A DNA stretch of 64,000 nucleotides from Clostridia bacterium. GTDB lineage: Bacteria > Bacillota > Clostridia > Lachnospirales > Bianqueaceae. Positions 39,282 to 59,426 of the stretch are shown piece by piece. The translations under genes were made by a program, and so were the position numbers. Below the pieces are notes generated by a model, which was given only the letters and a program-made list of their open reading frames with translations, made no database searches and was not told where the DNA came from. Numbering within the stretch: position 1 is the first letter of the stretch; every line of letters begins with the position of its first letter. The stretch covers positions 14,492 through 78,491 of the forward strand of contig CAAFMN010000024.1 in NCBI GenBank assembly GCA_900764045.1, given 5' to 3'.

Positions 39282-40921
39282 TTCGAATTACTCAGTTAAA
39301 GCTTTCGATCGAAGAACCCATAGAGGCTTTGGAGCCGCTCATCTGTAAGCATCTCAAGATTCAGAAAAAGGATCTGGTTCGCTGGGAGATTCTCCGGCGT
39401 TCGCTGGATGCCCGCAGAGGGCATGCTTTTGTTTTCTCCTATACGGTAGAGGCAGAGGTTACCAATGAGGCGGCCTGCTGGAAAAGATTGACGCAGAAGA
39501 AGGACATGGAGCTGCGGGAGGAGACTGCAGCGAGTTTTCCGGCTCACGCCGGCTATCAGAGCAAGGAGAGGCCGGTGGTCGTGGGCTTCGGTCCGGCCGG
39601 AATGTTCTGCGCATTGGTTCTGGCCCGGGCAGGGCTCTGTCCGATTGTTCTGGAACGAGGACGCAGAGTAGAAGAGAGGGCGCAGGATGTGGAACGTTTC
39701 TGGAAGGAGCATGTCCTGCAGCCGGAATCCAATGTACAGTTCGGAGAAGGAGGCGCGGGAACATTTTCCGACGGTAAGCTCAATACGCTGGTCAAGGATA
39801 AAGAGGGCCTCGGCCGCTGGGTGCTTCGAGAGATGGTTCAGGCTGGCGCGCCGGAAGAGATACTGTATGACAGCAAGCCACATATTGGGACCGATCGGCT
39901 GCGGGAGGTTGTCCGCGGGATTCGGCAGGAGATCGAGAATCTGGGCGGCGAGATCCGATTTGAGACGAAGCTGGAGGATGTGGAAGCCGTTTCGCAGGGA
40001 CTTCGTCTGAGTACCGTCTCTCATGGAGTTCGTAACCATCTGCAGGCGGAAGCCGTCTTTCTCGGGATTGGACATAGCGCACGGGATACATTTTCAATGT
40101 TAAAAAAAGCGGGCCTTCTTATGGAGCCCAAGCCTTTTGCGGTAGGACTTCGGATTGAGCACCCGCAAAGCTTTGTGGATCATCTTCAATATAGGGAATA
40201 CGCAGGGCATCCGGCTTTGGGGGCGGCCTCCTATAAGGTCGCTTACACGGAGCCCGGCGGACGGGGCGTATATTCGTTCTGCATGTGTCCCGGCGGTCTT
40301 GTTGTAGCCTCCGCTTCCGAAGAGGGAGAGATGGTGGTCAATGGCATGAGCAATTACCGCAGAGATGAGAAGAATGCGAATTCCGCCATTCTGGTTACGG
40401 TTACGCCGGAGGATTATCAGAAGTATGGAGAGGATGAGCTGGCAGGCGTTGCCTTTCAGCGCTGCCTGGAACGGGCGGCATACCGGCTGGGAGGCTCCGA
40501 CTGGCGGGCGCCTGTTCAATATGTGGGAGAGTATCTGAAGGGACAGGGCCTGGAGGTACCCAAGGGACAGCCGCCTTTTTCAGAGGTAGAACCCAGTTGC
40601 ACTTCCGGATGGAAGGCAGCGGAGCTGGGAGAGGTTCTGCCGGAAGCGCTTGCTCATTCGTTGGGACTGGGCCTTTTGGGCTTTGAAAAGAGTATGCCGG
40701 GCTTTGCTTCAGCCGGCGCGGTATTGACCGGAGTGGAGTCCAGGAGTTCTTCACCGGTTCGGATGCTGCGGGATGCGGCGATGAATTCTTCCATACCGGG
40801 GCTTTACCCGATCGGAGAGGGCGCAGGCTATGCGGGCGGTATTATGTCCGCAGCGATGGATGGACTCAAGGCAGCCAGAATGTATCTGCGGAAACTGGAG
40901 GGAGGAGCATGTGGTATGTAA
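39278..40921 (+). CDS. FAD-dependent oxidoreductase (COG2509-like)
   Basis: Rossmann GFGPAGMFCA motif and a GGAGTFSDGKL motif, 547 aa, with a GTG start after RBS aaaggagag. Confidence 0.7.
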   Translation: MIRITQLKLSIEEPIEALEPLICKHLKIQKKDLVRWEILRRSLDARRGHAFVFSYTVEAEVTNEAACWKRLTQKKDMELREETAASFPAHAGYQSKERPVVVGFGPAGMFCALVLARAGLCPIVLERGRRVEERAQDVERFWKEHVLQPESNVQFGEGGAGTFSDGKLNTLVKDKEGLGRWVLREMVQAGAPEEILYDSKPHIGTDRLREVVRGIRQEIENLGGEIRFETKLEDVEAVSQGLRLSTVSHGVRNHLQAEAVFLGIGHSARDTFSMLKKAGLLMEPKPFAVGLRIEHPQSFVDHLQYREYAGHPALGAASYKVAYTEPGGRGVYSFCMCPGGLVVASASEEGEMVVNGMSNYRRDEKNANSAILVTVTPEDYQKYGEDELAGVAFQRCLERAAYRLGGSDWRAPVQYVGEYLKGQGLEVPKGQPPFSEVEPSCTSGWKAAELGEVLPEALAHSLGLGLLGFEKSMPGFASAGAVLTGVESRSSSPVRMLRDAAMNSSIPGLYPIGEGAGYAGGIMSAAMDGLKAARMYLRKLEGGACGM

Positions 40922-41541
40922 TGCGCGTCCCTACGGGGATGGAGCAGAGTTATCAGAGAAAATGCGAACAAAGGATAGAAGCGCCGGTTCTGGAAAAAAG
41001 TTTTTTGCCATATTATGATGAGATGAGGAAACAAGGCGGCGTATGGACCATCCGTCCATGCGTGCTGTTTCCGGGTTATGTGTTTATGCAGACAAGGGAA
41101 CCGGAGGAGCTTCAGCGAAAGTTGAGGCAGATTCCGGGCTGGAAATCACTTGTAACAGTGGGGACAGAGATTGTGCCGATCACACCAGCTGAAGAGGCAC
41201 TTCTTCGGGAGCTGGGGCATGAGGAGCAAGTGATCCCCGTTTCACGCGGGATTATACAGGATAATGAGATTATCGTCACAGAGGGGCCTTTAAAGGGCAA
41301 GGAAGCGTACATCCGAAGGATTGACCGTCATAAACGGCGGGCATATCTGGAATGGCATATGGCATCGGAGGTAGTGGAGGCCGGAGTCAGTCTGGAGATC
41401 TACGCCAAGAATCAACCGGAGAGAAAGTATAAGACAGAATTTTTTAATGGAAATCACGCGGTGGTTAGCCTGGAAGACGGGCAAACCGCACAGAATATAC
41501 AAAGTATATACATGGAGACGAAAAAGCGGAAAGGAGTATAG
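40909..41541 (+). CDS. NusG-family transcription antiterminator paralog (LoaP/UpxY-like)
   Basis: NGN motifs (WYVMRVPTGMEQ, LFPGYVFMQ) and a KOW motif (IVTEGPLKGKEAYIRRID). It directly precedes a polysaccharide locus. Confidence 0.75.
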   Translation: MWYVMRVPTGMEQSYQRKCEQRIEAPVLEKSFLPYYDEMRKQGGVWTIRPCVLFPGYVFMQTREPEELQRKLRQIPGWKSLVTVGTEIVPITPAEEALLRELGHEEQVIPVSRGIIQDNEIIVTEGPLKGKEAYIRRIDRHKRRAYLEWHMASEVVEAGVSLEIYAKNQPERKYKTEFFNGNHAVVSLEDGQTAQNIQSIYMETKKRKGV

Positions 41542-41544
41542 GCT

Positions 41545-43389
41545 ATGTGTGGAATCATCGGATATATCGGTAAAGAAGAGAAGGCGACCAATATTATCAT
41601 GGAAGGGTTGGCCAAGCTGGAATACCGGGGATATGACTCGGCGGGAATCGCGGTTTTCACGCCCTCAGGGATCTGTATAGAAAAGAAAAAGGGAAGGCTG
41701 TCCAACCTGGCGGAGCATCTCAAGGAGGTCGGTTTTCCGCAGGGCTATGCCGGAATCGGCCATACCCGCTGGGCAACGCATGGAGAACCGTCCGATATCA
41801 ATGCGCATCCGCATTGCAGTATGGATCACTCGGTGGTTGTGGTACATAATGGTATCATCGAAAATTACGCACAGCTGCGGGATCAGCTGATTGCTCAGGG
41901 GAGTTCCTTTGTCTCTGAGACGGATACGGAGATCCTGGCCAATGTGATCGCATGGTATTATAAGCAGGAAAAGGAGCCGGTGAAGGCGATCAATAAGGCT
42001 CTCAGTGTCATGCGTGGTTCTTATGGTCTGGGAATCCTTTTTGCGGACCATCCGGACACGATATACGCGACAAGAAAGGACAGTCCCTTGATTGTAGGAC
42101 TTGGTAAGGGAGAGAACTATATAGCCTCGGATATCCCCGCCATACTGAATCATACCCGGGACGTATATCTTCTGGAAAATCATGATATCGCGGTCCTGAC
42201 GACCGATACGATTCAGATCGTCGGAGCGGACGGAAATCCGGTTCACAGGGACATTTTCCACGTGACCTGGGATGTAGCGGCGGCAGAAAAGGGCGGATAT
42301 CCGCATTTTATGTTGAAGGAGATCTATGAGCAGCCCCAGGCCGTCAGAGACACACTCAATTCTCGGCTGCAGGATACGGTGGACCGCCCGAGAATGGAAG
42401 ATCTGGGTATCGGTCAGGAAGTATTGGACAATCTGGATCGGATCTATCTGGTAGCCTGCGGTACAGCATATCATGCGGCGATGGTAGGCAAATACCTGAT
42501 TGAGCGGATTGCCAGAGTCAGTACGGTCGTGGAGACGGCCTCCGAGTTCCGGTATCGGGATCCGATCATTGATGAAAAAACACTGGTCATTGTCGTATCG
42601 CAGTCCGGAGAGACGGCGGATACGCTCGCGGCGCTACGGATATCCAAGGCTGCCGGAGCTAAGGTGCTGGGCATCGTGAATGTTGTCGGCTCCAGTATCA
42701 GCCGGGAAGCGGATTATGTATTCTATACCTGGGCTGGCCCGGAGATTGCCGTTGCCAGTACCAAGGCCTATTCCTGCCAGCTCGCGGCCATGTACCTATT
42801 AAGCGCCCATTTTGCCATGCTGCGTGGGAAGATGACTACAGAAGAGTTCCGGGCGCTGCGCAGCGATCTGATCGGTCTGCCAGCCAAGATTGAGGAGATC
42901 CTTCAGAAGGCGGAAGAGATCCATAAGATTGTGGAAGAGAATGATCCATACAATGTGTTTTATGTCGGACGAGGACTGGATTATTACACCGGTATGGAGG
43001 GCTCCCTAAAGCTCAAGGAAGTCGCGTATCTGCATAGTGAAGCCTATGCTGCCGGAGAATTGAAGCATGGACCGATCGCGATGATTGAAAAGGGAACGCT
43101 TGTGATCGGCATTGTGACGCAAAAGAGCCTGATCGAGAAGACCATCAGCAACCTCAAGGAGGTCAAGGCCCGAGGCGCGAAGGTGCTCTGCATTGCGGCG
43201 GAGGATGCGGATATGGCGTTGATCCGCAGTGTAGCGGATGAGATCATCACCATTCCGTCCTGCAATTGGATGTTTACCTCGCTGCTGGCCAATATCCCGC
43301 AGCAGCTGATCGCCTATTACATGTCCGTAAAAAAGGGATACGATGTAGATAAGCCGAGAAATCTGGCCAAAAGTGTCACCGTTGAGTAA
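41545..43389 (+). CDS. glmS: glutamine--fructose-6-phosphate aminotransferase
   Basis: MCGIIGY N-terminal nucleophile and two SIS domains, 614 aa. It lies 3 nt after the NusG paralog, leaving no room for a glmS ribozyme. Confidence 0.95.
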   Translation: MCGIIGYIGKEEKATNIIMEGLAKLEYRGYDSAGIAVFTPSGICIEKKKGRLSNLAEHLKEVGFPQGYAGIGHTRWATHGEPSDINAHPHCSMDHSVVVVHNGIIENYAQLRDQLIAQGSSFVSETDTEILANVIAWYYKQEKEPVKAINKALSVMRGSYGLGILFADHPDTIYATRKDSPLIVGLGKGENYIASDIPAILNHTRDVYLLENHDIAVLTTDTIQIVGADGNPVHRDIFHVTWDVAAAEKGGYPHFMLKEIYEQPQAVRDTLNSRLQDTVDRPRMEDLGIGQEVLDNLDRIYLVACGTAYHAAMVGKYLIERIARVSTVVETASEFRYRDPIIDEKTLVIVVSQSGETADTLAALRISKAAGAKVLGIVNVVGSSISREADYVFYTWAGPEIAVASTKAYSCQLAAMYLLSAHFAMLRGKMTTEEFRALRSDLIGLPAKIEEILQKAEEIHKIVEENDPYNVFYVGRGLDYYTGMEGSLKLKEVAYLHSEAYAAGELKHGPIAMIEKGTLVIGIVTQKSLIEKTISNLKEVKARGAKVLCIAAEDADMALIRSVADEIITIPSCNWMFTSLLANIPQQLIAYYMSVKKGYDVDKPRNLAKSVTVE

Positions 43390-43398
43390 AGAATATTT

Positions 43399-43438
43399 GC
43401 CAAAGATTTTCAAAATGAGAATCTTTGGCATTTTTATT
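43399..43438 (+). terminator. rho-independent terminator after glmS
   Basis: Stem gccaaagatt/aatctttggc followed by a tttttattt tract. Confidence 0.7.
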
Positions 43439-43523
43439 TGGTAGGATCTGTCCAAAAATCCATGGAAAACGGGAGAATAAGGGATATGTCGAACAGATTC
43501 GACAGAAGTAGAAGATAATAGTG

Positions 43524-43552
43524 TTGCAAATCCTAGTGAATTATGGTATACT
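43524..43552 (+). promoter_or_regulatory. sigma-A-type promoter of the polysaccharide operon
   Basis: TTGCAA, a 17-nt spacer, then TATACT. A ~220-nt leader follows before wbaP. Confidence 0.5.
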
Positions 43553-43689
43553 GTCCATGTATAATCAGGAAAGGAGAGGATGGTTTGTGAGCTTCCCTGG
43601 AAGCTGTTTGTGCAAGAGAATCACAAAGCATTGGCCTATCAAATCGTCGCCCAGCCGCGTTTGAGAATCCCGTGCCACACACCTGTTTT

Positions 43690-43737
43690 CCATTCATGCG
43701 GACCCTAGGCATGAATGGCGTAGCTTACTCTTTTTTT
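43690..43737 (+). promoter_or_regulatory. leader hairpin plus T-tract (candidate attenuator or antitermination target) in the cps 5' UTR
   Basis: A 10-bp perfect stem (ccattcatgc/gcatgaatgg) with a 9-nt loop at 43690-43718, then ttttttt at 43731-43737. Confidence 0.35.
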
Positions 43738-43771
43738 AATATCAAAATCACAAAGGATATGGACTCATACT

Positions 43772-45181
43772 ATGTATAGACAAACCAAAAACAGTTTGGA
43801 CAAGCATTGGGATTTTATCATTGTCGATATCTTTGCCCTGGAGCTGTCCCTGTTTCTTGCATATTTGCTACGGAATCAAGGGGAATTGCCTATTTATAGC
43901 GAGCTTTACCGCAATCTGATCCTGATCATTCCGCTGCTACACATCGTAATGGCCTTTTGTATCAATAATTATTCCGGCATTCTTAGAAGAGGCTATCTTC
44001 TGGAGCTGAAAAGCGTCCTGAAGCAATGCCTCGCTATCTCTGTTGTCCTGCTCATGTATTTTTTTGTATTTCAATCTACAGATGAATATTCACGCTATGT
44101 CCTGATCGGAACAGCGGTATTCAGCGTCCTTTTTGTTTATCTTGGAAGAATCGGTCTGAAAGCCCTGAAAAAGCATATTGGAAAAGCCAATGTTTCCTGC
44201 ATGCTTGTGATCGCTCCGTCCGATGAGGTTTCGACGCTGCTTGAGAATCTTCAGAAGGATATCTACAACCGGTATCGCATCAGCGGTATTGTGTATAGTG
44301 ATAAGGAAGTGGAAGAGGGACAGAGTGTAGAAGGAATTCCCGTCGTCGCGGATATGTCGACATATAAGGAATATGTGCGTCAGCAAGTGGTGGATGAGAT
44401 CTTTGTGGCTGTGAAGCCAAGCGATGAGAGAATGGGCGAGATCATGAAGATCGCGGAGGAGATCGGAGTGACAATTCATCTTAGTATCCCCATTCTGTTT
44501 CCTACGTCTTTCCCACAGATAATCTCCAGAATCGGTCCCTATACGGCAGTGACCTCTTCCCCAAAGCTTGTTACGCAGACGCAGCTCTTTATCAAGCGGA
44601 TGATGGACATTGCGTCAGCGCTGATCGGCCTTGTATTTACCGGCATTGCGTATCTATTGGTCGCGCCGATCATCAAGATCCAGGCGCCCGGTCCGGTGTT
44701 ATTCTCACAGACCCGAGTGGGGCGGAACGGCAGACCGTTCAAAATCTATAAATTCCGTTCTATGTATGTGGACGCGGAGGAGCGGAAAAAGGAGCTCATG
44801 AAGGAAAATGAGATGCAGGGTCTGATGTTCAAGATGGAAAACGATCCGCGAATTTTTCCTTTTGGTCGGTTTATCCGTAAGATGTCCATCGATGAGCTGC
44901 CGCAGTTCTGGAATGTGCTCAAGGGGGACATGTCGCTGGTAGGGACAAGGCCGCCGACAATGGACGAGTATAAACAATACGAACTGCACCATAAGTTCCG
45001 CCTGGCCTTTAAGCCGGGCATCACAGGCATGTGGCAGGTTTCCGGCAGATCCTCGATCAAGGACTTCGAGGAGGTTGTCCGCTTGGATGGCGAATATATC
45101 TGCAACTGGTCCATTTTGTTGGATATTAAGATCATATTGAAAACGATCAAAGTCGTTTTAAGTCACGCAGAAGCGGAATAA
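43772..45181 (+). CDS. wbaP: polyprenyl-phosphate hexose-1-phosphate transferase (WbaP/CpsE-like initiating sugar transferase)
   Basis: Multi-TM N-terminus and a C-terminal Bac_transf domain (PGITGMWQVSGRS). Confidence 0.85.
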   Translation: MYRQTKNSLDKHWDFIIVDIFALELSLFLAYLLRNQGELPIYSELYRNLILIIPLLHIVMAFCINNYSGILRRGYLLELKSVLKQCLAISVVLLMYFFVFQSTDEYSRYVLIGTAVFSVLFVYLGRIGLKALKKHIGKANVSCMLVIAPSDEVSTLLENLQKDIYNRYRISGIVYSDKEVEEGQSVEGIPVVADMSTYKEYVRQQVVDEIFVAVKPSDERMGEIMKIAEEIGVTIHLSIPILFPTSFPQIISRIGPYTAVTSSPKLVTQTQLFIKRMMDIASALIGLVFTGIAYLLVAPIIKIQAPGPVLFSQTRVGRNGRPFKIYKFRSMYVDAEERKKELMKENEMQGLMFKMENDPRIFPFGRFIRKMSIDELPQFWNVLKGDMSLVGTRPPTMDEYKQYELHHKFRLAFKPGITGMWQVSGRSSIKDFEEVVRLDGEYICNWSILLDIKIILKTIKVVLSHAEAE

Positions 45182-45211: not shown

Positions 45212-45577
45212 ATGCTGAATGTTGGTAATACACACGATACTGTTCGTGTGGTCAATGACCAGATCGGCACACCGACCTATACATATGATTTGGCTCGACT
45301 GCTCGTCGATATGAATGAAACCGAGAAGTACGGTTATTATCATGCAACCAACGAGGGTGGCTATATCAGCTGGTATGATTTCACGAAAGAAATCTATCGT
45401 CAGGCTGGATATAAGACAGAAGTGGTTCCTGTCACTACGGCGGAGTACGGTCTGAGCAAGGCGGCTCGCCCGTTTAACAGCCGGTTGGACAAGAGCAAGC
45501 TGGTGGAAGCTGGATTTACTCCGCTTCCGACCTGGCAGGATGCACTGAGCCGCTATCTGAAAGAAATCGAGGAGTAA
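45212..45577 (+). pseudogene. rfbD: C-terminal fragment of dTDP-4-dehydrorhamnose reductase
   Basis: Matches only the C-terminal ~120 aa of RfbD (QIGTPTYTYDLA...). The N-terminal Rossmann half is absent. Confidence 0.65.
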
Positions 45578-45583
45578 AAGAAA

Positions 45584-46192
45584 ATGGGACAGATTAAAGT
45601 TGAGAAAAACGTAGGTGGCATCAAGGGTCTTTGTGTGATTGAGCCGGCTGTTCACGGCGATGCCCGTGGCTATTTTATGGAAACCTACAACGAAAAAGAT
45701 ATGAAGGAAGCTGGCATCGACATTCATTTTGTACAGGATAATCAGTCCATGTCCACGAAGGGGGTGCTGCGCGGTTTGCATTTCCAGAAGCAGTATCCGC
45801 AGTGTAAGCTGGTACGCGCCGTGCGCGGAACTGTGTTTGATGTCGCTGTTGACCTGAGAAGTGATTCTACGACCTATGGCAAATGGTATGGTGTTATCCT
45901 GTCGGCCGAGAACAAGAAGCAGTTCCTTATCCCAGAAGGCTTTGCACATGGATTTTTGGTACTGAGTGATGAGGCAGAGTTCTGCTATAAGGTCGACGAT
46001 TTCTGGCATCCAAATGACGAAGGCGGCATGGCTTGGAATGATCCAGAGATTGGCATTGAATGGCCGGAACTGAAGGGTGAGTACAAGGGAAGCGCAAGTG
46101 CAGAAGGCTACACGCTGGAAGACGGTACGGCACTGAATCTGAGTGATAAGGATCAGAAGTGGCTGGGATTGAAGGATACATTTAAATTTTAA
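45584..46192 (+). CDS. rfbC: dTDP-4-dehydrorhamnose 3,5-epimerase
   Basis: Cupin-fold RmlC motifs (RGLHFQ, GFAHGF), 202 aa. Confidence 0.9.
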   Translation: MGQIKVEKNVGGIKGLCVIEPAVHGDARGYFMETYNEKDMKEAGIDIHFVQDNQSMSTKGVLRGLHFQKQYPQCKLVRAVRGTVFDVAVDLRSDSTTYGKWYGVILSAENKKQFLIPEGFAHGFLVLSDEAEFCYKVDDFWHPNDEGGMAWNDPEIGIEWPELKGEYKGSASAEGYTLEDGTALNLSDKDQKWLGLKDTFKF

Positions 46193-47735: not shown

Positions 47736-47766
47736 AGCCTAATACAGATTAAAAGGGGTAGGCGAT

Positions 47767-48594: not shown

Positions 48595-48645
48595 TAGAAG
48601 GAAATGGTAGAAGAAACAAAAAAGTTTCACGAAAGGGTTTGACAG

Positions 48646-49764: not shown

Positions 49765-49839
49765 ATTAGTTGATTTGTTTTAGATACATCCGACCAGATT
49801 AAAAGGAGTAAAGGACGGATTTCTGGAGGAAGATATGCC

Positions 49840-50859: not shown

Positions 50860-50964
50860 AATTCGCTCCTAAAAAGATTTGCGATAATGCTTATAATGCA
50901 TCACTATCTATTATAGGCCAGCAGTCAATAATATTTGTGGAATGTTCGAGGTGGAAAATAAACA

Positions 50965-51837: not shown

Positions 51838-51864
51838 ATTACAATATAGAGGGAACAAAAGGCG

Positions 51865-52968: not shown

Positions 52969-52992
52969 GACGATGAAAGAGGAAGCAGTTTC

Positions 52993-54042
52993 ATGGATAA
53001 ATATCAAATTGTGGAGACGACCGAACAATTCAATCATGCTGGAACAAAAGCCACCGCAGATATTTCGGTGGTCGCCGAGAAAATGGGCTTTCAAAAGCTC
53101 TATTTGAAGATGCGCACCACAAAGTCGGGCTATCTTGCAAAGGCGCAGCGCCAGGTGGGGTATTATATCGACTGGAACAACTGTTATCAGGCGATAACAG
53201 AGGGAAGCGTTGTGCTGTTGCAGCATCCGTTCCATTATCCGCAGCTTACAAGAGATAGGTTGCTCTACAAGCTGAAAAAAGAGAAGAAGGTCAAGTTTAT
53301 CTCGGTTATGCATGATGTGGAGGAGCTGAGAGCGTTCCGCTACAACGACTACTACAAGAGAGAGTTTGAGGTCATGCTTGATATTGCGGATGTTATCATC
53401 GTCCACAATCAGGTGATGCTTGATTGGTTTGTGGGGCGCGGTGTGCCAAGAGAAAAGCTTGTCAATTTAAAGTTGTTTGATTATTTGATCGACGCTCCAA
53501 CACCCAAGAAGGTCGATTTTGAAAGGAGCATCAATATCGCCGGCAATCTGGATGTGACGAAATGCGGCTATATCAGTCAGCTCGGCCAGCTGGAAGGCGT
53601 AACGGTGAATCTATACGGTCCGAATTTTGATGAAAAAATGCGGCAGTGTAAAAATATCGTCTATCACGGCTCTTTTCCTGTGGCTGAGATACCGAATCAA
53701 CTTAATAAGGGATTCGGGCTTGTGTGGGACGGAGATAGCATTGACGGCTGCAAGGGACTGTCAGGACAGTATCTGAGGTATAACAATCCACATAAGATGT
53801 CGCTTTATATCGCCTCTGGACTGCCGATTATTATTTGGAAGGAAGCGGCTCAGGCGAAGTTTGTGGAAGAGAATGGGATTGGGATTTGCGTGGGTAGCCT
53901 TGAAGAAATAGGGGGTACTTTATCACGCATATCTGAAAACGAGTATTGTGGTCTTATCGAGAATGTAAATAAAATAAACAATGAAGTTACAACTGGAAAA
54001 TATGCGGAGAACGCACTTTATTTGAGCATTAAAATGCTTTAA
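52993..54042 (+). CDS. putative glycosyltransferase (WbbI/WciB-like, possible galactofuranosyltransferase)
   Basis: 349-aa soluble protein inside a glf-containing locus. Family assignment is tentative. Confidence 0.4.
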   Translation: MDKYQIVETTEQFNHAGTKATADISVVAEKMGFQKLYLKMRTTKSGYLAKAQRQVGYYIDWNNCYQAITEGSVVLLQHPFHYPQLTRDRLLYKLKKEKKVKFISVMHDVEELRAFRYNDYYKREFEVMLDIADVIIVHNQVMLDWFVGRGVPREKLVNLKLFDYLIDAPTPKKVDFERSINIAGNLDVTKCGYISQLGQLEGVTVNLYGPNFDEKMRQCKNIVYHGSFPVAEIPNQLNKGFGLVWDGDSIDGCKGLSGQYLRYNNPHKMSLYIASGLPIIIWKEAAQAKFVEENGIGICVGSLEEIGGTLSRISENEYCGLIENVNKINNEVTTGKYAENALYLSIKML

Positions 54043-54088
54043 ATCAATAACTAAGAGAATTACGTCAATTTTTACGATGGAGGAATAC

Positions 54089-55339
54089 ATGAAACTAAAC
54101 CACAAATCCCACTCGCTTCTGAAGATGTATGACATTATATTATATTTGATGGCATTATCTTTTATCCTTTCGTCCGGTTCGATGTATACCGTAATAACTG
54201 ATTATTATGACGCAGGCATTACAGATTCGCTATTCGTTAAAATTTTCTGCGTTGTGGGATTTATATATTGGATCTTGCTTGTCTCAAAAAAGAATAAGAT
54301 TAAAATAAAAGCTCTGATTTTTCCACTCACAGTCGTTGCTTTTTTTGCTATATATTTATTGTTTACTGGAATTGGCGTTATGCCCTGCATTTCCCAAATG
54401 GTTTTGCCGTTCACCTTATTATTTATGATTTGTGCGCAAGAAGGTCCAAAGCTTTTTCTTGAAAAATTTTTTGATAAATATTCACAAATAATGTCGTTAA
54501 TAGCAATTGTCTCACTTGTGTTTTATTTTTTAGGTACACTTGGTGGCATGCTTCCTAAGAGCGAAATACAATATTACAATAATCGCTGGACTTATAGCTG
54601 CTATAGCTATTTTAATATTTACTTTGAGAATCCTTTACAAAATCTGTCTTATGCACCACGAAATGTCGGCGTGTTCATGGAAGCCCCTGGATTTGCGATT
54701 GCTCTCTTATATGCCCTCTTTTGGAATTTGGTTAAGGAGAAAAAAAATAAAGTTATAATTGTAATTCTACTCGTTACCATGGTGACAACTTTATCCACAA
54801 CTGCAATCGTTGTTGGTGGTCTTTTGATATCGTTGTATTATTATTTTAATGCAAAGAATCGCTCAATTAAAATAGCTTTAAGAGCATTTACACCATTACT
54901 TGTTGTATTGGCTGCGTGGATGGTATATCTGATTATGAAGGCAAAAATGACAACGGGGAATTCTGGATCGGTTTTGATCCGGCTTGACGATATTGGAGCT
55001 GCCTGGAAATCGTTTCTACAAGCTCCAATCTTTGGAGTGGGTTTCTATAATCTTGAGGCAATTTACAGTAACTACACCTATACTACATTAAAAGGTAATC
55101 CGACATTTGGACTTTTAAATATTCTTGCTTATGGTGGAATATATTTAGGTCTTTACTATTACGGAGGACTACTATGGTTTGCTAAATCGAATATTCTTGA
55201 CAAAAATGGAAAAATCTTGTTCGTTTTTATGATGGGCGCTCTTTTATGTTCTAGCCCAATGCAGTATAGTATTATGCTATATCTATTTATAAGTGCTGGA
55301 TATGTTGCTAAGCTTAGCATAGCACCTCGGCTAAAATGA
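54089..55339 (+). CDS. wzy: O-antigen/EPS polymerase (Wzy-like) membrane protein
   Basis: About 10-12 TM helices with a large periplasmic loop. Start is the ATG after RBS ggagga. Confidence 0.6.
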   Translation: MKLNHKSHSLLKMYDIILYLMALSFILSSGSMYTVITDYYDAGITDSLFVKIFCVVGFIYWILLVSKKNKIKIKALIFPLTVVAFFAIYLLFTGIGVMPCISQMVLPFTLLFMICAQEGPKLFLEKFFDKYSQIMSLIAIVSLVFYFLGTLGGMLPKSEIQYYNNRWTYSCYSYFNIYFENPLQNLSYAPRNVGVFMEAPGFAIALLYALFWNLVKEKKNKVIIVILLVTMVTTLSTTAIVVGGLLISLYYYFNAKNRSIKIALRAFTPLLVVLAAWMVYLIMKAKMTTGNSGSVLIRLDDIGAAWKSFLQAPIFGVGFYNLEAIYSNYTYTTLKGNPTFGLLNILAYGGIYLGLYYYGGLLWFAKSNILDKNGKILFVFMMGALLCSSPMQYSIMLYLFISAGYVAKLSIAPRLK

Positions 55340-55391
55340 ATAAAAACAGTCATGTAAATAAAGAATACAATTTATCAAATGGAGAAAATGG

Positions 55392-56837
55392 ATGAGACAG
55401 AAATCTCTAAAACTAAATTTTATTATGAACGCCATCCTTACGATGTCGTCATTTATATTTCCTCTTATAACTTTTCCATATGTCTCCCGCATTCTTTTGC
55501 CAGAAGGTACTGGAAAGGTATCATTTGCGACATCCGTAATCTCGTACTTTGCGATGTTTGCTCAGCTCGGTATCCCTACTTATGGCATCCGCGCCTGCGC
55601 AAAGGTAAGAGACAACCGTAAAGAGCTGACCAAAACAGCACAGGAAATCTTCATAATCAATATTGCAATGACGGTGCTTGCTTATGCTGTTTTCTTAGTT
55701 GCGTTGTTTACAGTTCCTCACTTGCAGCAAGATAAAACATTGTTTTTGATTGTCAGTACAACAATGATTTTTAATGCCATCGGGATGGAATGGCTTTATA
55801 AGGCATTGGAGCAGTATACATACATAACTGTTCGTTCTATCATCTTTAAATTTGTCGCCTTGGTTGCGATGTTTCTTCTGATTCACGAGAAAAGCGATTA
55901 TGTAATTTACGGTGGAATCTCCATATTGGCATCTTCGGCATCGAATGTATTTAACTTTATTAACATACATAGATATATTGGCTTTCGCCCAGTAGGACAA
56001 TATAATTTTAAACGACATCTACAGCCCATTGCTGTGTTCTTTGCAATGTCATGCGCTATGACGGTATATACGAACCTGGACACCGTGATGCTTGGATTCA
56101 TGAAGACAGACACTGATGTCGGATATTACAATGCCGCTGTGAAAATCAAAAATATTTTGGTAAGTGTGGTGTCTTCTCTTGGCACGGTTCTTTTACCGAG
56201 AGCGTCGTACTATGTCGAGCATGATATGCTGAATGAGTTTAAACGTATCACAGGCAAAGCCATAAATTTTGTGTGGTTGGTTGCACCGCCGCTCGTTGTT
56301 TATTTCATCTTATACGCAAAAGAAGGCATCGTTTTGTTATCTGGTGATGCTTATTTGGGCTCGGTATCTGCGATGCAACTTATTATGCCAACTGTGTTTC
56401 TTATAGGTTTATCTGGAGTTATGGGCATCCAGATTTTAGTACCCCTTGGCAGAGAAAGAGTTGTTCTTCACTCCGAAATTGCTGGGGCAATAGTTGACTT
56501 GATTATCAATTGGATGCTTATTCCATCAATGGCTTCAGTTGGAGCTGCGATAGGCACACTTGTTGCCGAGGCTGTTGTTACAGTCTGGCAGTTTGTCGCA
56601 CTGCGTGATACTGTCACAGCTGCTTACAGAGAGGTGCATTATTTGCCGATAATAATCGGCGTTTTGCTGGGTGGCGCAGCATCTATATGGGTAAAAAGCC
56701 TTAGCTGGACGGAGTTTCCTACTCTGACCCTGTCCGCGATACTGTTCTTTAGTGTGTATGCAATTGTCTTGACACTAGCAAAAGAACCAATGACAATTGA
56801 GGTCGAGAAATATATGCTTAGGAAACTACGGCACTGA
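55392..56837 (+). CDS. wzx: oligosaccharide flippase (Wzx, MOP superfamily)
   Basis: 481 aa with about 14 TM helices and a polysaccharide-biosynthesis-protein signature. Confidence 0.8.
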   Translation: MRQKSLKLNFIMNAILTMSSFIFPLITFPYVSRILLPEGTGKVSFATSVISYFAMFAQLGIPTYGIRACAKVRDNRKELTKTAQEIFIINIAMTVLAYAVFLVALFTVPHLQQDKTLFLIVSTTMIFNAIGMEWLYKALEQYTYITVRSIIFKFVALVAMFLLIHEKSDYVIYGGISILASSASNVFNFINIHRYIGFRPVGQYNFKRHLQPIAVFFAMSCAMTVYTNLDTVMLGFMKTDTDVGYYNAAVKIKNILVSVVSSLGTVLLPRASYYVEHDMLNEFKRITGKAINFVWLVAPPLVVYFILYAKEGIVLLSGDAYLGSVSAMQLIMPTVFLIGLSGVMGIQILVPLGRERVVLHSEIAGAIVDLIINWMLIPSMASVGAAIGTLVAEAVVTVWQFVALRDTVTAAYREVHYLPIIIGVLLGGAASIWVKSLSWTEFPTLTLSAILFFSVYAIVLTLAKEPMTIEVEKYMLRKLRH

Positions 56838-56928
56838 ATTTGATGTGTAAAGTGTAGGACGGATTAAAATGATTTGGCTGATTTGACGAAGGAAGCTTTT
56901 AAATGACAATTTAGATAAGGAGTATGAC

Positions 56929-58347
56929 ATGAAAAAAATATTATATTATAATTGGACACCTTTGGATAGTTCTGAGGGAGGTGGTGTCGCTGTATATCAG
57001 CGAAATTTGATCGATTCTCTGGGGGGGAGTTACAGCGTAACATATCTTAATTCGGGATACACTTATACTTTTGATAAAAAGCTTCGTTTAAAAGAAAAAG
57101 CATGCCCAGATTATCCCGAGGTAAAAACATTTGAGGTCATAAACTCTCCTGTCCTTGCTCCGGTACAACAGTCAATAAAAAATATTGATATTTATCTGCA
57201 CGATGAAAGCCTTTATAAGCTTATCAGAAATTTTATTATATCTCAAGGCGGATTCGATGTGATTCATTTTAATAATCTGGAGGGGTTGTCGCTTAAGGTT
57301 CTGAGTTTGAAAAAGGACTTTCCTGATACCACATTTATTTATTCAGTCCATAACTACTTCCCTGTATGCAGCAGAGTCAACCTGTGGAAAGATGAGGCGC
57401 AGGGCAAGGGACATAATTGCAACAAAAGGGATTTTGCAGAGTGCGCAGCATGTTATAAAAGCAGGAGTTACAAAGGAGAAGTTACCTCGAAGATTGCAAA
57501 TCGCTACAAGGACAAAGATAAAGCAAAATGGGTCGCATTAAAAATCGCCTCGAAATTTTATACGCTTACCGAAAACGATTCTTGCGATTTGGACTTGTAC
57601 AGACAGTTCGAAGAGAAAAACATAGAATACATAAACCTCTATTTTGACCGGGTGCTTGCGGTTTCACAACGTGTAAAGACTATTATGCTTGAGCACGGTG
57701 CGGATAAAAGCAAGATCGAGGTATCTTATATAGGAACAGCAGTTGCCGAAGCACAAATGGGGTGTTGCAACGCAGAGGTTGATTTGGAAGAATTCAATAT
57801 GATCTATATGGGATATATGAGAGATGATAAAGGATTCTATTTCTTGCTTGATGCGTTAAAAAATGTCCCACCTGAGATCGCGGCTAAAATTTCAGTTACA
57901 TTTGCTGCTAAATATGATGAGAGAACACAGCGTCAGGATGTGGCCCAAATAATGGAGCTTAAAAGAATATATAAGAATATTAAGCTTGTAAACGGTTACA
58001 CAAAGCAAAATCAAAGAGAGCTTTTAACCGGGATCCACTTGGGGATTGTACCTGTATTGTGGGAGGATAATTTGCCTCAGGTGGCAATCGAGCAAGTCGC
58101 CTATGGTGTGCCAGTCCTGGTCAGCGACTTGGGCGGTGCCGCTGAGGTGTGCAACAACAAGCAGTTCGTTTTTAAAGCAGGTGATAGAAAAGACTTTTTG
58201 ACGAAACTGCAATATATTATAGAAAATAGGGAATGCTTGAATGATTTTTGGAAATATTCAATGCATTTAGTTACAATGGATCAGCATATCAATCAGTTGA
58301 ACCGTTTGTATGAAGGACCTACAGTTCGGAATTTGCATTGCGTGTGA
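56929..58347 (+). CDS. glycosyltransferase family 4 with inserted Cys4 cluster
   Basis: C-terminal GT4 motif (EQVAYGVPVLVSDLGGAAEV) and a C-x16-C-x7-C-x2-C cluster at about 57367-57453. Confidence 0.6.
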   Translation: MKKILYYNWTPLDSSEGGGVAVYQRNLIDSLGGSYSVTYLNSGYTYTFDKKLRLKEKACPDYPEVKTFEVINSPVLAPVQQSIKNIDIYLHDESLYKLIRNFIISQGGFDVIHFNNLEGLSLKVLSLKKDFPDTTFIYSVHNYFPVCSRVNLWKDEAQGKGHNCNKRDFAECAACYKSRSYKGEVTSKIANRYKDKDKAKWVALKIASKFYTLTENDSCDLDLYRQFEEKNIEYINLYFDRVLAVSQRVKTIMLEHGADKSKIEVSYIGTAVAEAQMGCCNAEVDLEEFNMIYMGYMRDDKGFYFLLDALKNVPPEIAAKISVTFAAKYDERTQRQDVAQIMELKRIYKNIKLVNGYTKQNQRELLTGIHLGIVPVLWEDNLPQVAIEQVAYGVPVLVSDLGGAAEVCNNKQFVFKAGDRKDFLTKLQYIIENRECLNDFWKYSMHLVTMDQHINQLNRLYEGPTVRNLHCV

Positions 58348-58472
58348 CTATTAAATAATAAAATTTTCAACCATTTTGTGAACGCAAGCTTCTAATGGAT
58401 AGGTCTACTTTATTTTCTTGTGAGATAAGTCGTTACTTTAAACTTAAAATAGGAAGGGAGTACAAGAGACTT

Positions 58473-59426
58473 ATGAAAACAACATTACTGATAATGGCCG
58501 CAGGTATCGGCTCCCGCTTCGGCGGTGGTATTAAGCAGCTTGAGCCGGTTGGCCTGCATGACGAAATCATCATGGACTATTCCATCCACGATGCCATCAA
58601 GGCAGGATTTAATAAGATTATTTTTGTAATCCGTAAAGATATAGAAGCTGACTTCCGGGAACGAATCGGTGAACGTGTGGAGAGCATCTGCAATAATGCA
58701 GGTGTGGAAGTAGGCTATGCTTTTCAGGATATTAATGATATTCCGGCATCCTATTCTGTTCCCACTGGCCGTACTAAGCCGTGGGGTACTGGACAGGCTG
58801 TACTTGCTGCGAAAGAGCTAATCCATGAGCCGTTTATGGTCATCAACGCGGATGACTATTACGGGAAAGAAGCGTTCAAGGCATTACACGACTGGCTAAT
58901 ACTGCCTCATGCGGACAACGCCATTGCTATGGCTGGATTCATTCTGAAGAATACACTATCTGATAACGGCGGTGTGACCAGAGGTGTGTGCAAGGTAGAA
59001 GAAGGGCATACGCATATTGTTGATGTTGTAGAAACGAGCAATATTGTGAAGACTGTTGATAGGGATGGCAATGTTGGAGCAGAAGCTGATGGCGTAAAAC
59101 TCAATCCGGACTCCTATGTTTCCATGAATATGTGGGGCTTCCCGGCTGCGGAAGGAGAGGCTCCTGCGTTCCTTCAAGTGCTTGAGTATGGTTGGCTTGA
59201 TTTCTTTAAGGATTCAGTATCGGCTAATCCTCTGAAAGCTGAGTATCTGCTACCGACGCTGATCGGTGGACTGTTGAGAACTGGTTCTTGTACTGTAAAA
59301 GTTCTGGAGACGAATGATAAATGGTTTGGTGTTACCTATAAGGAAGATAAGCCTGTGGTAGTGGAGAGCTTTAAGAAGCTGATTGCTGATGGTGTATACG
59401 GTGAGGAACTGTATAGAGATTTATAA
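58473..59426 (+). CDS. sugar-phosphate nucleotidyltransferase (NTP_transferase domain)
   Basis: LIMAAGIGSRFGG glycine-rich motif, about 318 aa. Start is the internal ATG after RBS ggaaggga. Confidence 0.6.
   Translation: MKTTLLIMAAGIGSRFGGGIKQLEPVGLHDEIIMDYSIHDAIKAGFNKIIFVIRKDIEADFRERIGERVESICNNAGVEVGYAFQDINDIPASYSVPTGRTKPWGTGQAVLAAKELIHEPFMVINADDYYGKEAFKALHDWLILPHADNAIAMAGFILKNTLSDNGGVTRGVCKVEEGHTHIVDVVETSNIVKTVDRDGNVGAEADGVKLNPDSYVSMNMWGFPAAEGEAPAFLQVLEYGWLDFFKDSVSANPLKAEYLLPTLIGGLLRTGSCTVKVLETNDKWFGVTYKEDKPVVVESFKKLIADGVYGEELYRDL

What the first reader, a model, noticed from the sequence alone, without database searches (positions are those of the whole stretch)
40909..59426. NusG paralog (LoaP/UpxY-like) co-transcribed with glmS heads an 18-kb galactofuranose-containing polysaccharide locus
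The ORF at 40909-41541 has the NGN and KOW signatures of a specialised NusG paralog. It is followed 3 nt later by glmS, so there is no room for a glmS ribozyme. After glmS come a terminator, a strong promoter and a ~220-nt structured leader in front of wbaP...wzx. Specialised NusG paralogs are known to drive operon-specific antitermination of polysaccharide or polyketide clusters. Here the paralog is physically coupled to hexosamine supply through glmS, and the leader hairpin plus T-tract at 43690-43737 is a candidate site for its action.
Basis: partly seen in the sequence, partly recalled or inferred. Interest (0 to 1): 0.6.

Follow-up and report, generated by a model that had tools for sequence, protein, structure and literature searches.

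The report
LoaP antiterminator, displaced from its leader
A specialised transcription-elongation factor (LoaP) is encoded next to glmS in a housekeeping operon, and the polysaccharide operon just downstream carries the conserved leader that marks LoaP targets, including an RfaH/UpxY-like "ops" block apparently not yet described for LoaP.

Summary
ORF 40909-41541 is a LoaP-family NusG paralog (NCBIfam NF033641, 141 bits, cutoff 125), not housekeeping NusG, RfaH or UpxY. Its start overlaps the upstream gene by 13 nt, and glmS follows 3 nt after its stop. After glmS come a terminator, a conserved extended -10 promoter and a ~212-nt leader before a 16-kb Wzx/Wzy-type locus with glf.

The new result is in the leader. 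Window 43614-43738 is one copy of a ~125-nt element present once, same strand, beside loaP in 77 of 80 related loci. It has four parts:
- a long covarying hairpin (P1) whose apex has the frame of the validated LoaP-binding dfn hairpin;
- a GUCAUA-like spacer;
- a second covarying hairpin (P2);
- an invariant TGGCGNAGC block with the same GCGNAGC core as Bacteroides opsX.

Brevibacillus polyketide loci carry the same element. It usually precedes loaP; here and in three related lineages it sits after glmS, in front of the polysaccharide operon, so LoaP acts in trans.

Coupling to hexosamine supply is conserved synteny only. This is a new variant of a known kind.

The parts
39278..40921 (+). FAD-dependent protein gene (FAD-depend_C). 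Its stop overlaps the loaP start by 13 nt. It is part of the conserved MBL / radical-SAM / FAD-dependent / loaP / glmS block.
   Evidence: Pfam PF21688, 241 bits. The block is conserved in L002-L005, L081 and L083.
40909..41541 (+). loaP: a LoaP-family NusG paralog of 210 aa. It has an NGN domain, a KOW domain and a ~40-aa C-terminal extension shared only by the glmS-linked clade.
   Evidence: NF033641 141.3 bits against cutoff 125, with the nusG, RfaH and UpxY models far below their cutoffs. Alignment A1. AlphaFold model. Best PDB match 8f5g, E = 1.8e-13, whose sequence is 94% identical to a Thermoanaerobacter protein named LoaP.
41545..43389 (+). glmS (glutamine--fructose-6-phosphate aminotransferase), starting 3 nt after the loaP stop.
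   Evidence: TIGR01135 796 bits. Sequence read directly.
43398..43440 (+). Intrinsic terminator that ends the housekeeping / loaP / glmS transcription unit.
   Evidence: 15-pair stem followed by TTTTTATTT. L003-L005 also have T-runs after glmS; preceding hairpin read by eye (L004).
43524..43552 (+). Promoter of the polysaccharide operon: -35 TTGCAA, 17-nt spacer, TG-extended -10 TATACT. The transcription start is predicted near 43559.
   Evidence: The same TTGCAA-17-TGnTATACT is present in L004 and L005, where LoaP is 51% identical.
43614..43738 (+). LoaP-associated leader element; this is the full-length match to covariance model R1.
   Evidence: Only hit in the window, 71.3 bits, E = 6e-14. 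One hit per locus in 77 of 80 loci, all on the loaP strand. Hits also in loci outside the training set: L081, L085 and L086.
43628..43675 (+). P1, a long hairpin. Its apex AAUCGUCGCCCAGCCGCGUU (43642-43661) has the frame of the LoaP-binding dfn hairpin and is the candidate LoaP RNA-binding site.
   Evidence: 17 pairs, 12 of them with compensatory changes; 90% of cells paired against 33-45% in slid controls. Same length and frame as the dfn hairpin; the window copy is identical at 12 of 20 positions.
43674..43689 (+). Spacer carrying the window's version (GUGCCACAC) of the conserved GUCAUA-like motif. Its function is unknown.
   Evidence: Alignment A5, with column 66 invariant. GAGGUCAUA is also present in Brevibacillus L085 and L086.
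43690..43718 (+). P2 hairpin (CCAUUCAUGC / GCAUGAAUGG), a candidate pause hairpin.
   Evidence: -15.8 kcal/mol, z = -2.8. All four P2 pairs covary across 65 leaders. One compensatory change relative to L004 and L005.
43716..43727 (+). ops-like block TGGCGTAGC-T-T-A. It contains the GCGNAGC mini-hairpin motif and a proposed pause at T43726. It is a candidate non-template-strand DNA hairpin and pause signal.
   Evidence: T, GGCG, A and G are invariant in 65 of 65 leaders, and the final C in 64 of 65. N is A in 56, G in 6 and T in 3. AGC is followed by N-Y-R in 58 of 65. The core is the same as Bacteroides opsX YGCGNAGCR, and E. coli ops is GCGGTAGC (PMC11685472).
43731..43737 (+). T7 tract. A run of at least four T is found at this position in about 55% of family members. 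Its role is unclear: weak terminator, pause element or neither.
   Evidence: 43 of 77 leaders have such a run. The upstream RNA hairpin is weak whether or not a T-tract is present.
43772..45181 (+). Initiating polyprenyl-phosphate hexose-1-phosphate transferase (WbaP/WcaJ-like). It is the first gene after the leader.
   Evidence: TIGR03025 396 bits; Bac_transf 230 bits.
45212..59426 (+). The rest of the polysaccharide locus: rmlD fragment, rmlC, glycosyltransferase fragment, glf, DUF4422, acyltransferase-3, GT2, GT14-like, GT4, galactofuranosyltransferase-like, Wzy-like, Wzx, GT4 and an NTP-transferase-like gene.
   Evidence: Gene content after wbaP differs in the 92%-identical relative L001.

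Best explanation
The ORF encodes a LoaP-family processive antiterminator. In this lineage loaP has been separated from its target leader. It is translated from the end of a long housekeeping transcript (... MBL hydrolase, radical-SAM, FAD-dependent protein, loaP, glmS) that stops at the terminator at 43398-43440.

The polysaccharide operon starts at its own promoter (43524-43552). Its leader carries the family's recruitment module, and the proposed sequence of events is as follows.
1. LoaP, supplied in trans, binds the nascent P1 hairpin (43628-43675). This is inferred from the similarity of P1 to the dfn hairpin.
2. RNA polymerase then pauses a few nucleotides after the ops-like TGGCGTAGC block (about 43726). 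P2 acts as a pause hairpin, and GCGTAGC is exposed as a non-template-strand mini-hairpin. This is inferred by analogy with RfaH ops and Bacteroides opsX.
3. The pause gives the LoaP-RNA complex time to load onto the elongation complex.
4. The modified complex transcribes the ~16-kb wbaP-to-NTP-transferase operon without premature termination.

What is shown here: the family assignment of the protein, the gene arrangement and its conservation, and the presence, covariation and strict loaP linkage of the leader element. What is inferred: binding, pausing and antitermination.
For: Protein. The LoaP model is passed and the nusG, RfaH and UpxY models are failed.

Linkage. Covariance model R1 finds exactly one element per locus in 77 of 80 LoaP loci (1.3 Mb, both strands). 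Every hit is on the loaP strand, and there are no other hits at E <= 0.01. The window has a single hit.

Structure. P1 and P2 covary: 264 cells changed on both sides, against 39-88 in slid controls, and 0 of 500 shuffles reach the observed values for percent paired, both-side cells, pair types and covariation score (2/500 for pairs changed on both sides).

Link to experiment.
- The P1 apex has the length and frame of the dfn hairpin that LoaP binds and needs in vivo (PMC12691694; sequence from its Table S2).
- Brevibacillus polyketide-linked loaP loci carry the whole element. Their P1 apex is 16-17 of 20 identical to dfn by my count from the aligned sequences (R1 E = 2e-7 and 6e-5).

The element marks the target, not the loaP gene.
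- In the window, L001, L002, L004, L005 and L081 it lies after glmS, in front of the first polysaccharide gene.
- In L066, L085 and L086 it lies downstream of loaP, in front of the transferase or polyketide genes.

The ops analogy.
- TGGCGNAGC is invariant. The variable N falls at -6, and G(-10), Y(-1), R(+1) follow the ops register.
- The published ops and opsX cores are GCGGTAGC and YGCGNAGCR, placed at -11 to +1.
- GCGNAGC and GCGNNAGC are the two known extraordinarily stable DNA mini-hairpins (PMC13037366).
- A pause between the hairpin and the terminator helps LoaP in B. velezensis.
Against: - No experiment was done, and only one genome window is available. Other loaP copies or other targets cannot be excluded.
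- The window's P1 loop is CCA, not UUC, and its apex matches dfn at only 12 of 20 positions.
- Thermoanaerobacter LoaP, the crystallised protein, has no such element within 5 kb. L028 and L029 have none within the flanks fetched, up to 10 kb each side.
- Terminator-like sites inside the operon are not enriched (18 found, 15.3 +/- 5.1 expected). What LoaP has to overcome here is therefore undefined.
- The 9-mer TGGCGNAGC alone is not rare: 6 copies in the window against 2.3 expected.
- The conserved block could act as RNA rather than as DNA.
Confidence: 0.72

Rival explanations
1. One reading: the hairpin at 43690-43718 plus the T-tract at 43731-43737 is an intrinsic terminator (attenuator) in the leader. 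It is the site at which the NusG paralog acts.
For: - The hairpin is stable (-15.8 kcal/mol, z = -2.8) and conserved.
- A T-run follows the conserved block in 43 of 77 leaders.
- B. velezensis LoaP is known to override a NusA-stimulated terminator in the dfn leader.
- In some relatives (L080, L079, L046) the 3' arm of P2 can pair with the sequence after the ops-like block, forming a hairpin directly before the U-run.
Against: - 12 nt separate the stem from the T-tract, so the site fails the terminator scan.
- In the window the alternative RNA hairpin over GCGTAGC is only -1.8 kcal/mol.
- Mean stability is the same in leaders with and without a U-tract (-3.8 against -3.4 kcal/mol).
- About 45% of leaders have an A-run or other sequence in place of the T-run.
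- The invariance of TGGCGNAGC is not what a terminator stem needs.
- The dfn-like hairpin lies elsewhere, at 43628-43675.
Confidence: 0.2
2. The loaP-glmS linkage is functional. LoaP production is tied to hexosamine (GlcN6P) supply, so the polysaccharide is made only when precursor synthesis is switched on.
For: - The adjacency, with gaps of 2-40 nt, is conserved in four lineages: the window species, L003-L005, L081 and L083. LoaP identity across them is only 51-54%.
- These LoaPs share a C-terminal extension that is absent from other LoaPs.
- glmS lies 8-10 kb upstream of loaP in five further Lachnospiraceae loci.
Against: - The whole MBL / radical-SAM / FAD-dependent / loaP / glmS block is syntenic, so the adjacency may simply be inherited.
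- The four lineages are relatives, not independent events.
- No amino-sugar-specific enzyme was recognised in the locus.
- Gene content after wbaP varies between strains.
- The C-terminal extension is predicted with low confidence and has no recognisable fold.
- No glmS ribozyme or other sensor was found.
Confidence: 0.15
3. The conserved leader is a LoaP-independent cis-regulator, such as a riboswitch or another protein's binding site, that merely tends to sit in polysaccharide and polyketide loci.
For: - It is a structured, covarying RNA with invariant single-stranded blocks, as riboswitches are.
- It is not in Rfam.
Against: - It co-occurs with loaP in 77 of 80 loci, in both polysaccharide and polyketide contexts, and was not found elsewhere in 1.3 Mb.
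- Its apex matches the hairpin that LoaP binds with sub-micromolar affinity and that is required for antitermination.
Confidence: 0.05
4. The ORF is the housekeeping NusG of this organism.
For: It has an NGN domain and a KOW-like domain.
Against: - TIGR00922 nusG scores 35 bits against a cutoff of 135.7, while LoaP scores 141 against 125.
- None of the window ORFs scanned against Pfam/NCBIfam is a secE or rplK neighbour; ORFs before 25474 were not scanned.
- The IDRHKR motif is shared with the LoaP homologs.
Confidence: 0.01

Closest known systems
LoaP of Bacillus velezensis with the dfn/mln leader (hairpin, pause, NusA-stimulated terminator)
   Same: - The protein belongs to the same family: it passes the NCBIfam LoaP model.
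- The target leader contains a hairpin with the same frame, AAUCG...C NNN G...CGUU, including the bulged U.
- loaP is encoded next to, but outside, the operon it should act on.
- Brevibacillus polyketide loci bridge the two leader types.
   Different: - The target is a Wzx/Wzy polysaccharide locus, not a trans-AT polyketide cluster.
- The apical loop is CCA and not a UNCG-type tetraloop. The internal mismatch is C-C next to U-G, not as in dfn.
- loaP lies inside a housekeeping operon, with glmS, a terminator and a promoter between it and the leader.
- The protein has a ~40-aa C-terminal extension.
- No strong terminator is evident in the leader.
RfaH with the ops element / JUMPstart of Enterobacteria
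   Same: - A NusG paralog is made elsewhere and acts in trans on polysaccharide operons through a short leader signal.
- The conserved block TGGCGNAGC-N-Y-R aligns with ops GGCGGTAGCGTG. The A-G-C at -5 to -3, the G at -10, the Y at -1 and the R at +1 are in the same register.
- Both contain a GCG..AGC mini-hairpin motif.
   Different: - The loop is one nucleotide shorter (GCGNAGC against GCGGTAGC).
- The protein is not RfaH (30.7 against 144.5 bits).
- An additional upstream RNA hairpin module is present.
- Recognition of the DNA strand is untested here.
UpxY with opsX of Bacteroides capsule operons
   Same: - The mini-hairpin core GCGNAGC is the same, with a variable position at -6.
- A nascent-RNA hairpin sits immediately upstream of it.
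- The first start codon is a few tens of nucleotides downstream: +46 in the window, against +41 or +42 in class 1 opsX.
- The target is a capsule or exopolysaccharide operon.
   Different: - The protein fails the UpxY model (35.7 against 100).
- No UpxZ-like partner gene was recognised among the annotated genes of the locus, and no invertible promoter was looked for.
- The flanking bases differ: G before the core here, Y in opsX.
- upxY is the first gene of its own operon, whereas loaP here is in a different transcription unit.
Typical Lachnospiraceae arrangement: leader, then loaP, then polysaccharide genes
   Same: The leader element is the same (model R1) and the protein family is the same. 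Seventy of the 80 fetched loci have this layout.
   Different: In that layout loaP is the first gene behind its own leader, which allows positive autoregulation. In the window lineage the leader fronts wbaP, and loaP is transcribed with housekeeping genes, so the feedback loop is absent.

Membership tests
LoaP (specialised NusG paralog) | Scores above the curated cutoff of NCBIfam NF033641 over its full length | tested here: met
   141.3 bits against cutoff 125; residues 2-166 align to profile positions 1-165 of 166.
LoaP (specialised NusG paralog) | NGN domain plus KOW domain | tested here: met
   Pfam NusG 39 bits (cutoff 22.2). Pfam KOW is below cutoff (16.5 against 22.3), but the AlphaFold model shows a confident beta-barrel at residues 112-168.
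LoaP (specialised NusG paralog) | Encoded beside a long polysaccharide or polyketide operon | tested here: met
   The 16-kb polysaccharide locus starts 2.2 kb downstream of loaP.
LoaP (specialised NusG paralog) | Target leader carries a dfn-type RNA hairpin | tested here: met
   The P1 apex has the same length and frame as the dfn hairpin: 12 of 20 identical in the window and up to 15 of 20 in the family. Brevibacillus leaders bridge the two types at 16-17 of 20 by my count. The loop is not UNCG in the window copy.
LoaP (specialised NusG paralog) | Binds the hairpin and promotes read-through of terminators by antagonising NusA | not testable with these tools
   This needs binding and transcription assays.
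Housekeeping NusG | Passes TIGR00922; lies in a secE-nusG-rplK neighbourhood | tested here: not met
   35.2 bits against cutoff 135.7. The neighbours are a FAD-dependent protein gene and glmS.
UpxY | Passes NF033644; first gene of the capsule operon, followed by upxZ | tested here: not met
   35.7 bits against cutoff 100. The gene is not in the polysaccharide transcription unit.
RfaH | Passes TIGR01955 | tested here: not met
   30.7 bits against cutoff 144.5.
ops / opsX-type recruitment site | GCG(N)NAGC mini-hairpin motif in the leader, between the transcription start and the first start codon | tested here: met
   GCGTAGC at 43718-43724, 46 nt before the wbaP ATG. The block is invariant across 65 aligned leaders. 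The reference motifs come from PMC11685472 and PMC13037366.
ops / opsX-type recruitment site | RNA polymerase pauses there, and the paralog recognises the non-template DNA hairpin | not testable with these tools
   Only a sequence-level fit is available: G at -10, Y at -1 and R at +1 in 58 of 65 leaders.
Intrinsic terminator (for 43690-43737) | G+C-rich stem followed within 0-2 nt by a U-run | tested here: not met
   There is a 12-nt gap between the stem end (43718) and the T-run (43731). The scan did not list the site. The alternative hairpin is only -1.8 kcal/mol.
glmS ribozyme | Match to the Rfam glmS ribozyme model upstream of glmS | tested here: not met
   No Rfam hit at gathering score in the window or in seven related loci. 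Only 3 nt lie between loaP and glmS.
Wzx/Wzy-dependent polysaccharide locus containing galactofuranose | Initiating phosphoglycosyl transferase, flippase, polymerase, UDP-galactopyranose mutase and a galactofuranosyltransferase | tested here: met
   TIGR03025 396 bits; Polysacc_synt 112 bits; Wzy_C 37.8 bits (cutoff 31.7); GLF 273 bits. The galactofuranosyltransferase model NF007326 scores 396 bits, just under its cutoff of 420.

The most novel reading that the evidence does not exclude
LoaP recruitment is bipartite. Besides the known RNA hairpin, LoaP leaders across Bacillota carry an invariant ops-like GCGNAGC element preceded by a pause hairpin. This holds for Lachnospiraceae and relatives with polysaccharide loci, and for Brevibacillus with polyketide loci. 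The element would act as a non-template-strand DNA mini-hairpin and pause signal, as in RfaH ops and Bacteroides opsX. A GCG(N)NAGC hairpin would then be a shared, possibly ancestral, loading signal for specialised NusG paralogs in three phyla. The window lineage would be a natural case in which the regulator gene has been uncoupled from this signal.
Probability: 0.4. Interest if true: 0.8.

Novelty: new variant of a known kind. Interest (0 to 1): 0.6.

Why it matters
LoaP is currently described as the one NusG paralog that is recruited by nascent RNA, in contrast to the DNA ops signals of RfaH and UpxY (PMC12691694, PMC11685472). Here a covarying, loaP-linked leader element contains both a dfn-type hairpin and an invariant GCGNAGC block in the ops register. 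If that block works as ops does, the three systems share one recruitment logic. The pause that helps LoaP in B. velezensis would then have a defined sequence basis that can be tested directly.

In practical terms, covariance model R1 predicts LoaP-controlled operons from sequence alone, for both gut-bacterial capsules and polyketide clusters. It is not represented in Rfam.

The window lineage also shows that the element travels with the target operon rather than with loaP. In this lineage loaP is wired into a housekeeping operon, which removes the autoregulatory loop seen in most relatives.

Tried and rejected
- Rfam, whole window at gathering score, the leader at E <= 10, and seven related loci: no glmS ribozyme and no family for the leader.
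- Whole-leader folding: not more stable than shuffled sequence (z = -0.47).
- Enrichment of internal terminators in the operon as a rationale for antitermination: 18 found against 15.3 +/- 5.1 expected, so no enrichment.
- The RNA hairpin over GCGNAGC plus the U-run read as a terminator: the stems are weak and no stronger when a U-run is present.
- TGGCGNAGC as a stand-alone signal: 6 copies in the window against 2.3 expected, so it is not significant on its own.
- A UNCG tetraloop hairpin in the window leader: none seen by eye in the sequence; the P1 loop is CCA.
- A possible 4-5 bp complementarity between the P1 apex strand UCGCY and GGCGA of the ops-like block, seen by eye in alignment A5: both blocks are invariant, so there is no covariation to test, and I dropped it.
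- The C-terminal extension of LoaP: the AlphaFold model gives low confidence and only one helix, so no functional clue.
- The primary LoaP papers (Goodson 2017, Elghondakly 2021 and 2024, and the Goodson and Winkler review) are not held in the library. I therefore cannot exclude that part of the leader consensus has already been published. The dfn hairpin sequence came from the supplement of the 2025 mBio paper.
- Thermoanaerobacter loaP locus (L084): no element within 5 kb.

Full report
**1. Observation**

The ORF at 40909-41541 encodes a 210-aa protein.
- It has a Pfam NGN domain (39 bits, cutoff 22.2) and a sub-threshold KOW match (16.5 against 22.3).
- NCBIfam places it in LoaP: NF033641 scores 141.3 bits against a cutoff of 125 and aligns end to end.
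- The models for housekeeping NusG (35 against 135.7), RfaH (31 against 144.5) and UpxY (36 against 100) are all failed.
- An AlphaFold model built on 20 homologs gives a confident NGN domain and a beta-barrel KOW domain.
- The best PDB match is 8f5g. Its sequence is 94% identical to proteins that NCBI names antiterminator LoaP of Thermoanaerobacter.

The surrounding features are also as described.
- glmS (796 bits on TIGR01135) starts 3 nt after the loaP stop.
- Downstream lie a 15-pair terminator (43398-43430 plus a T-run) and a TG-extended promoter at 43524-43552.
- A ~212-nt leader then precedes a WbaP-like initiating transferase (43772).
- This is followed by a Wzx/Wzy-type locus with glf and a galactofuranosyltransferase-like gene, ending at 59426.
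- Rfam reports nothing in the window, so there is no glmS ribozyme.

loaP is thus the penultimate gene of a tightly packed housekeeping array. The array runs cdaA, cdaR, a mutS2-like gene, an Fe-ADH/GH43 fusion, a dinG-like helicase, an MBL hydrolase, a radical-SAM gene and the FAD-dependent gene.

**2. Relatives**

A scan of one genome per species returned the 80 closest LoaP loci.
- The block MBL / radical-SAM / FAD-dependent / loaP / glmS / gap / first polysaccharide gene is conserved in the window species (L001, L002).
- It is also conserved in a second lineage with only 51% LoaP identity (L003-L005, which includes Candidatus Faecimorpha stercoravium).
- Two further metagenomic lineages share it: L081, where the first gene after the gap is capD-like, and L083.
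- These LoaPs share a 40-75-aa C-terminal extension that the 168-aa LoaPs of Lachnospiraceae lack.
- The other 75 loci have no adjacent glmS, although five have glmS 8-10 kb upstream.
- L001 is 92% identical in DNA up to the end of wbaP and unrelated beyond it. The glycosyltransferase content is therefore strain-variable.

**3. The leader element**

Aligning the glmS-wbaP spacers of the two lineages showed the same promoter and two conserved blocks. Searching for the first block in all loci gave the key result. The motif ATCGTCGC-NNN-GYCGCG lies 105-420 nt upstream of loaP, on the loaP strand, in most Lachnospiraceae loci. In the window lineage it lies in the wbaP leader instead.

An alignment of 65 non-identical leaders (A5) shows four parts.
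- **P1**, a 17-pair hairpin. Its outer stem covaries freely and its apex AUCGUCGC-NNN-GYCGCGU is invariant.
- A **GUCAUA-like spacer**.
- **P2**, a variable covarying hairpin.
- The invariant block **TGGCGNAGC**, a median of 58 nt after the P1 core.

The covariation is strong. Ninety percent of cells are paired, against 33-45% when partners are slid. There are 264 cells changed on both sides, against 39-88 in the slid controls, and 0 of 500 shuffles reach the observed values (2 of 500 for pairs changed on both sides).

A covariance model (R1) gave these results.
- One hit in the window, at 43614-43738 (E = 6e-14).
- Exactly one hit per locus in 77 of 80 loci (1.3 Mb, both strands), all on the loaP strand and including loci not used for training.
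- The exceptions are L003, which is cut short, and L028 and L029.
- A hit in the untrained L081, again between glmS and the first polysaccharide gene.

Rfam has no matching family.

**4. Link to experimentally studied LoaP**

The 2025 mBio study reports the following.
- B. velezensis LoaP binds a small hairpin in the dfn and mln leaders.
- The hairpin is required for antitermination.
- A pause between the hairpin and the terminator helps.
- LoaP antagonises NusA at a leader terminator.

Its supplementary table gives the hairpin RNA as GGCCAAUCGCGUCUUCGGCACGUUGCC. The 20-mer AAUCGCGUCUUCGGCACGUU has the same length and frame as the family apex AAUCGUCGC-NNN-GYCGCGUU, and the predicted topology is the same: A-A stem, bulged U, C-G/G-C pairs, an internal mismatch and a short apex. 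Family members are identical to it at 10-15 of 20 positions, and the window copy at 12 of 20.

I then fetched more distant LoaP loci. In two Brevibacillus loci, where loaP precedes trans-AT polyketide genes, R1 finds the full element immediately downstream of loaP (E = 2e-7 and 6e-5). By my count from the aligned sequences, their P1 apex is 16-17 of 20 identical to dfn. The same GAGGUCAUA spacer and GGGCGAAGC block are present at the same spacing.

The whole bipartite element is therefore a general LoaP leader, found in both Clostridial polysaccharide loci and Bacillales polyketide loci. The Thermoanaerobacter locus has none within 5 kb.

**5. The ops-like block**

The Bacteroides UpxY study states that all E. 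coli ops sites encode the non-template hairpin GCGGTAGC. It gives YGCGNAGCR for Bacteroides opsX, placed at -11 to +1 of the pause. The "key" variable base is at -6, and a nascent-RNA pause hairpin reaches to -12 to -9. GCGNAGC and GCGNNAGC are the two known extraordinarily stable DNA mini-hairpins.

The LoaP leaders fit this pattern.
- T, GGCG, A and G are invariant in 65 of 65 leaders, and the final C in 64 of 65.
- N is A in 56, G in 6 and T in 3.
- AGC is followed by N-Y-R in 58 of 65.

If the Y is placed at -1, the block occupies -11 to +1, N falls at -6 and the invariant G falls at -10. A-G-C then sits at -5 to -3, as in ops, and the 3' end of P2 lies at about -13 (at -9 in the window).

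In the window this corresponds to TGGCGTAGC at 43716-43724, a proposed pause at T43726 and the wbaP ATG 46 nt later. The family median for that last distance is 67.5 nt.

The RNA hairpin that the block could form is weak: mean -3.5 kcal/mol and -1.8 in the window. It is no stronger in the roughly 55% of leaders that have a U-run. A terminator stem therefore does not explain the invariance. The 9-mer alone is not rare (6 in the window against 2.3 expected). Its significance comes from fixed position and invariance across leaders whose flanking stems covary. Whether it acts as DNA, as in ops, or as RNA cannot be decided here.

**6. Mechanism proposed**

LoaP is made from the housekeeping transcript together with GlmS, and that unit ends at the terminator at 43398-43440. 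The polysaccharide operon starts at its own promoter. LoaP binds nascent P1. The polymerase pauses at the ops-like block with help from P2. The LoaP-RNA complex loads onto the polymerase, and the modified complex transcribes the 16-kb operon.

The family assignment, the arrangement, its conservation and the loaP linkage of the element are shown by the analyses above. Binding, pausing and antitermination are inferred from B. velezensis LoaP and from RfaH and UpxY.

Because the leader fronts wbaP and not loaP, the positive feedback possible in the common arrangement (leader, then loaP, in 70 of 80 loci) is absent here. Comparable layouts, with loaP first and the leader in front of the target, occur in L066 and in Brevibacillus.

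**7. What is not supported**

- The hairpin plus T-tract at 43690-43737 is not a canonical terminator and is not the dfn-type hairpin.
- Internal terminators are not enriched in the operon.
- The glmS link is conserved synteny within one group of relatives. No amino-sugar-specific enzyme was recognised in the locus, and the clade-specific C-terminal extension gives no structural clue.
- Related Lachnospiraceae glmS genes also lack a ribozyme hit, so its absence here is not special.

**8. Verdict**

LoaP beside polysaccharide loci is already known. Two things are new here. The first is the displaced arrangement of loaP, inside a housekeeping operon next to glmS. The second is a well-supported covariance model of the LoaP leader that includes an ops-like GCGNAGC block, which the literature I could reach does not describe. 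The primary LoaP papers from 2017, 2021 and 2024 were not available, so prior description of part of this consensus cannot be excluded.

Noticed in passing
window 45212-45577 and 46212-46409 (gap 46192-46623): The rmlD ORF is only the C-terminal 121 aa (profile positions 163-285 of 287). It sits next to an intact rmlC. The 430-nt gap before glf holds a 65-aa ORF whose N-terminus looks like the start of a glycosyltransferase. Together they look like a decayed rhamnose module inside the locus. The rmlD fragment is identical in L002.
   Followed up: partly
window 35189-36499 and 36420-37568: The dinG-like helicase is split into two overlapping ORFs in the window. It is a single gene in the same-species relative L002 (795 aa) and in L081 (768 aa). 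This is either a frameshift or an assembly error.
   Followed up: partly
window 41416-41538 (LoaP residues ~170-210): LoaPs of the glmS-linked clade share a 40-75-aa C-terminal extension with a conserved AVVSLE-like motif. It is absent from the 168-aa Lachnospiraceae LoaPs. AlphaFold gives it low confidence and one helix (residues 194-206). Its function is unknown.
   Followed up: partly
window 59427-63323: The region downstream of the locus looks like a mobile element. It holds a small ORF, an apparent transposase remnant on the minus strand (by eye; not searched), a minus-strand ORF at 60172-60582 that looks like a small HTH/XRE-type regulator (by eye; not searched), a perfect 12-of-12 promoter at 60706-60734, a sigma-70 region-4 protein (61290-62189) and a RepA_N protein (62718-63323).
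   Followed up: no
L001:4664-8457 compared with window 45184 onward: A relative with 92% DNA identity shares loaP, glmS, the leader and wbaP, but has unrelated DNA after wbaP. This is the conserved-head, variable-body pattern typical of capsule loci.
   Followed up: partly
A5 columns 61-70; window 43674-43682; L085 and L086: A conserved GUCAUA-like motif (RRKGUCAUA) lies between P1 and P2 in Clostridial leaders and in the Brevibacillus leaders. It has no assigned role. The window version is GUGCCACAC, which differs only by transitions.
   Followed up: no
L028, L029, L079, L084: Some loaP genes have no leader element nearby. There is none within the flanks fetched (up to 10 kb each side) in L028 and L029, and none within 5 kb in Thermoanaerobacter L084. 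In L079 the element lies 10 kb downstream of a stand-alone loaP. Trans-acting arrangements may therefore be more common than the window lineage alone suggests.
   Followed up: partly
window 28917-31149: cdaA (diadenylate cyclase) and a YbbR/CdaR-like gene lie in the same plus-strand array as loaP and glmS. In many Bacillota (from memory, not checked here) cdaA and cdaR are followed by glmM. Here the amino-sugar gene in the array is glmS, 10 kb further on.
   Followed up: no
L014, L015, L017, L018, L022: In five Lachnospiraceae loci glmS lies 8-10 kb upstream of loaP on the same strand, with glf in between in four of the five (not detected in L015). glmS may be a recurrent flank of LoaP-controlled polysaccharide loci.
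   Followed up: no
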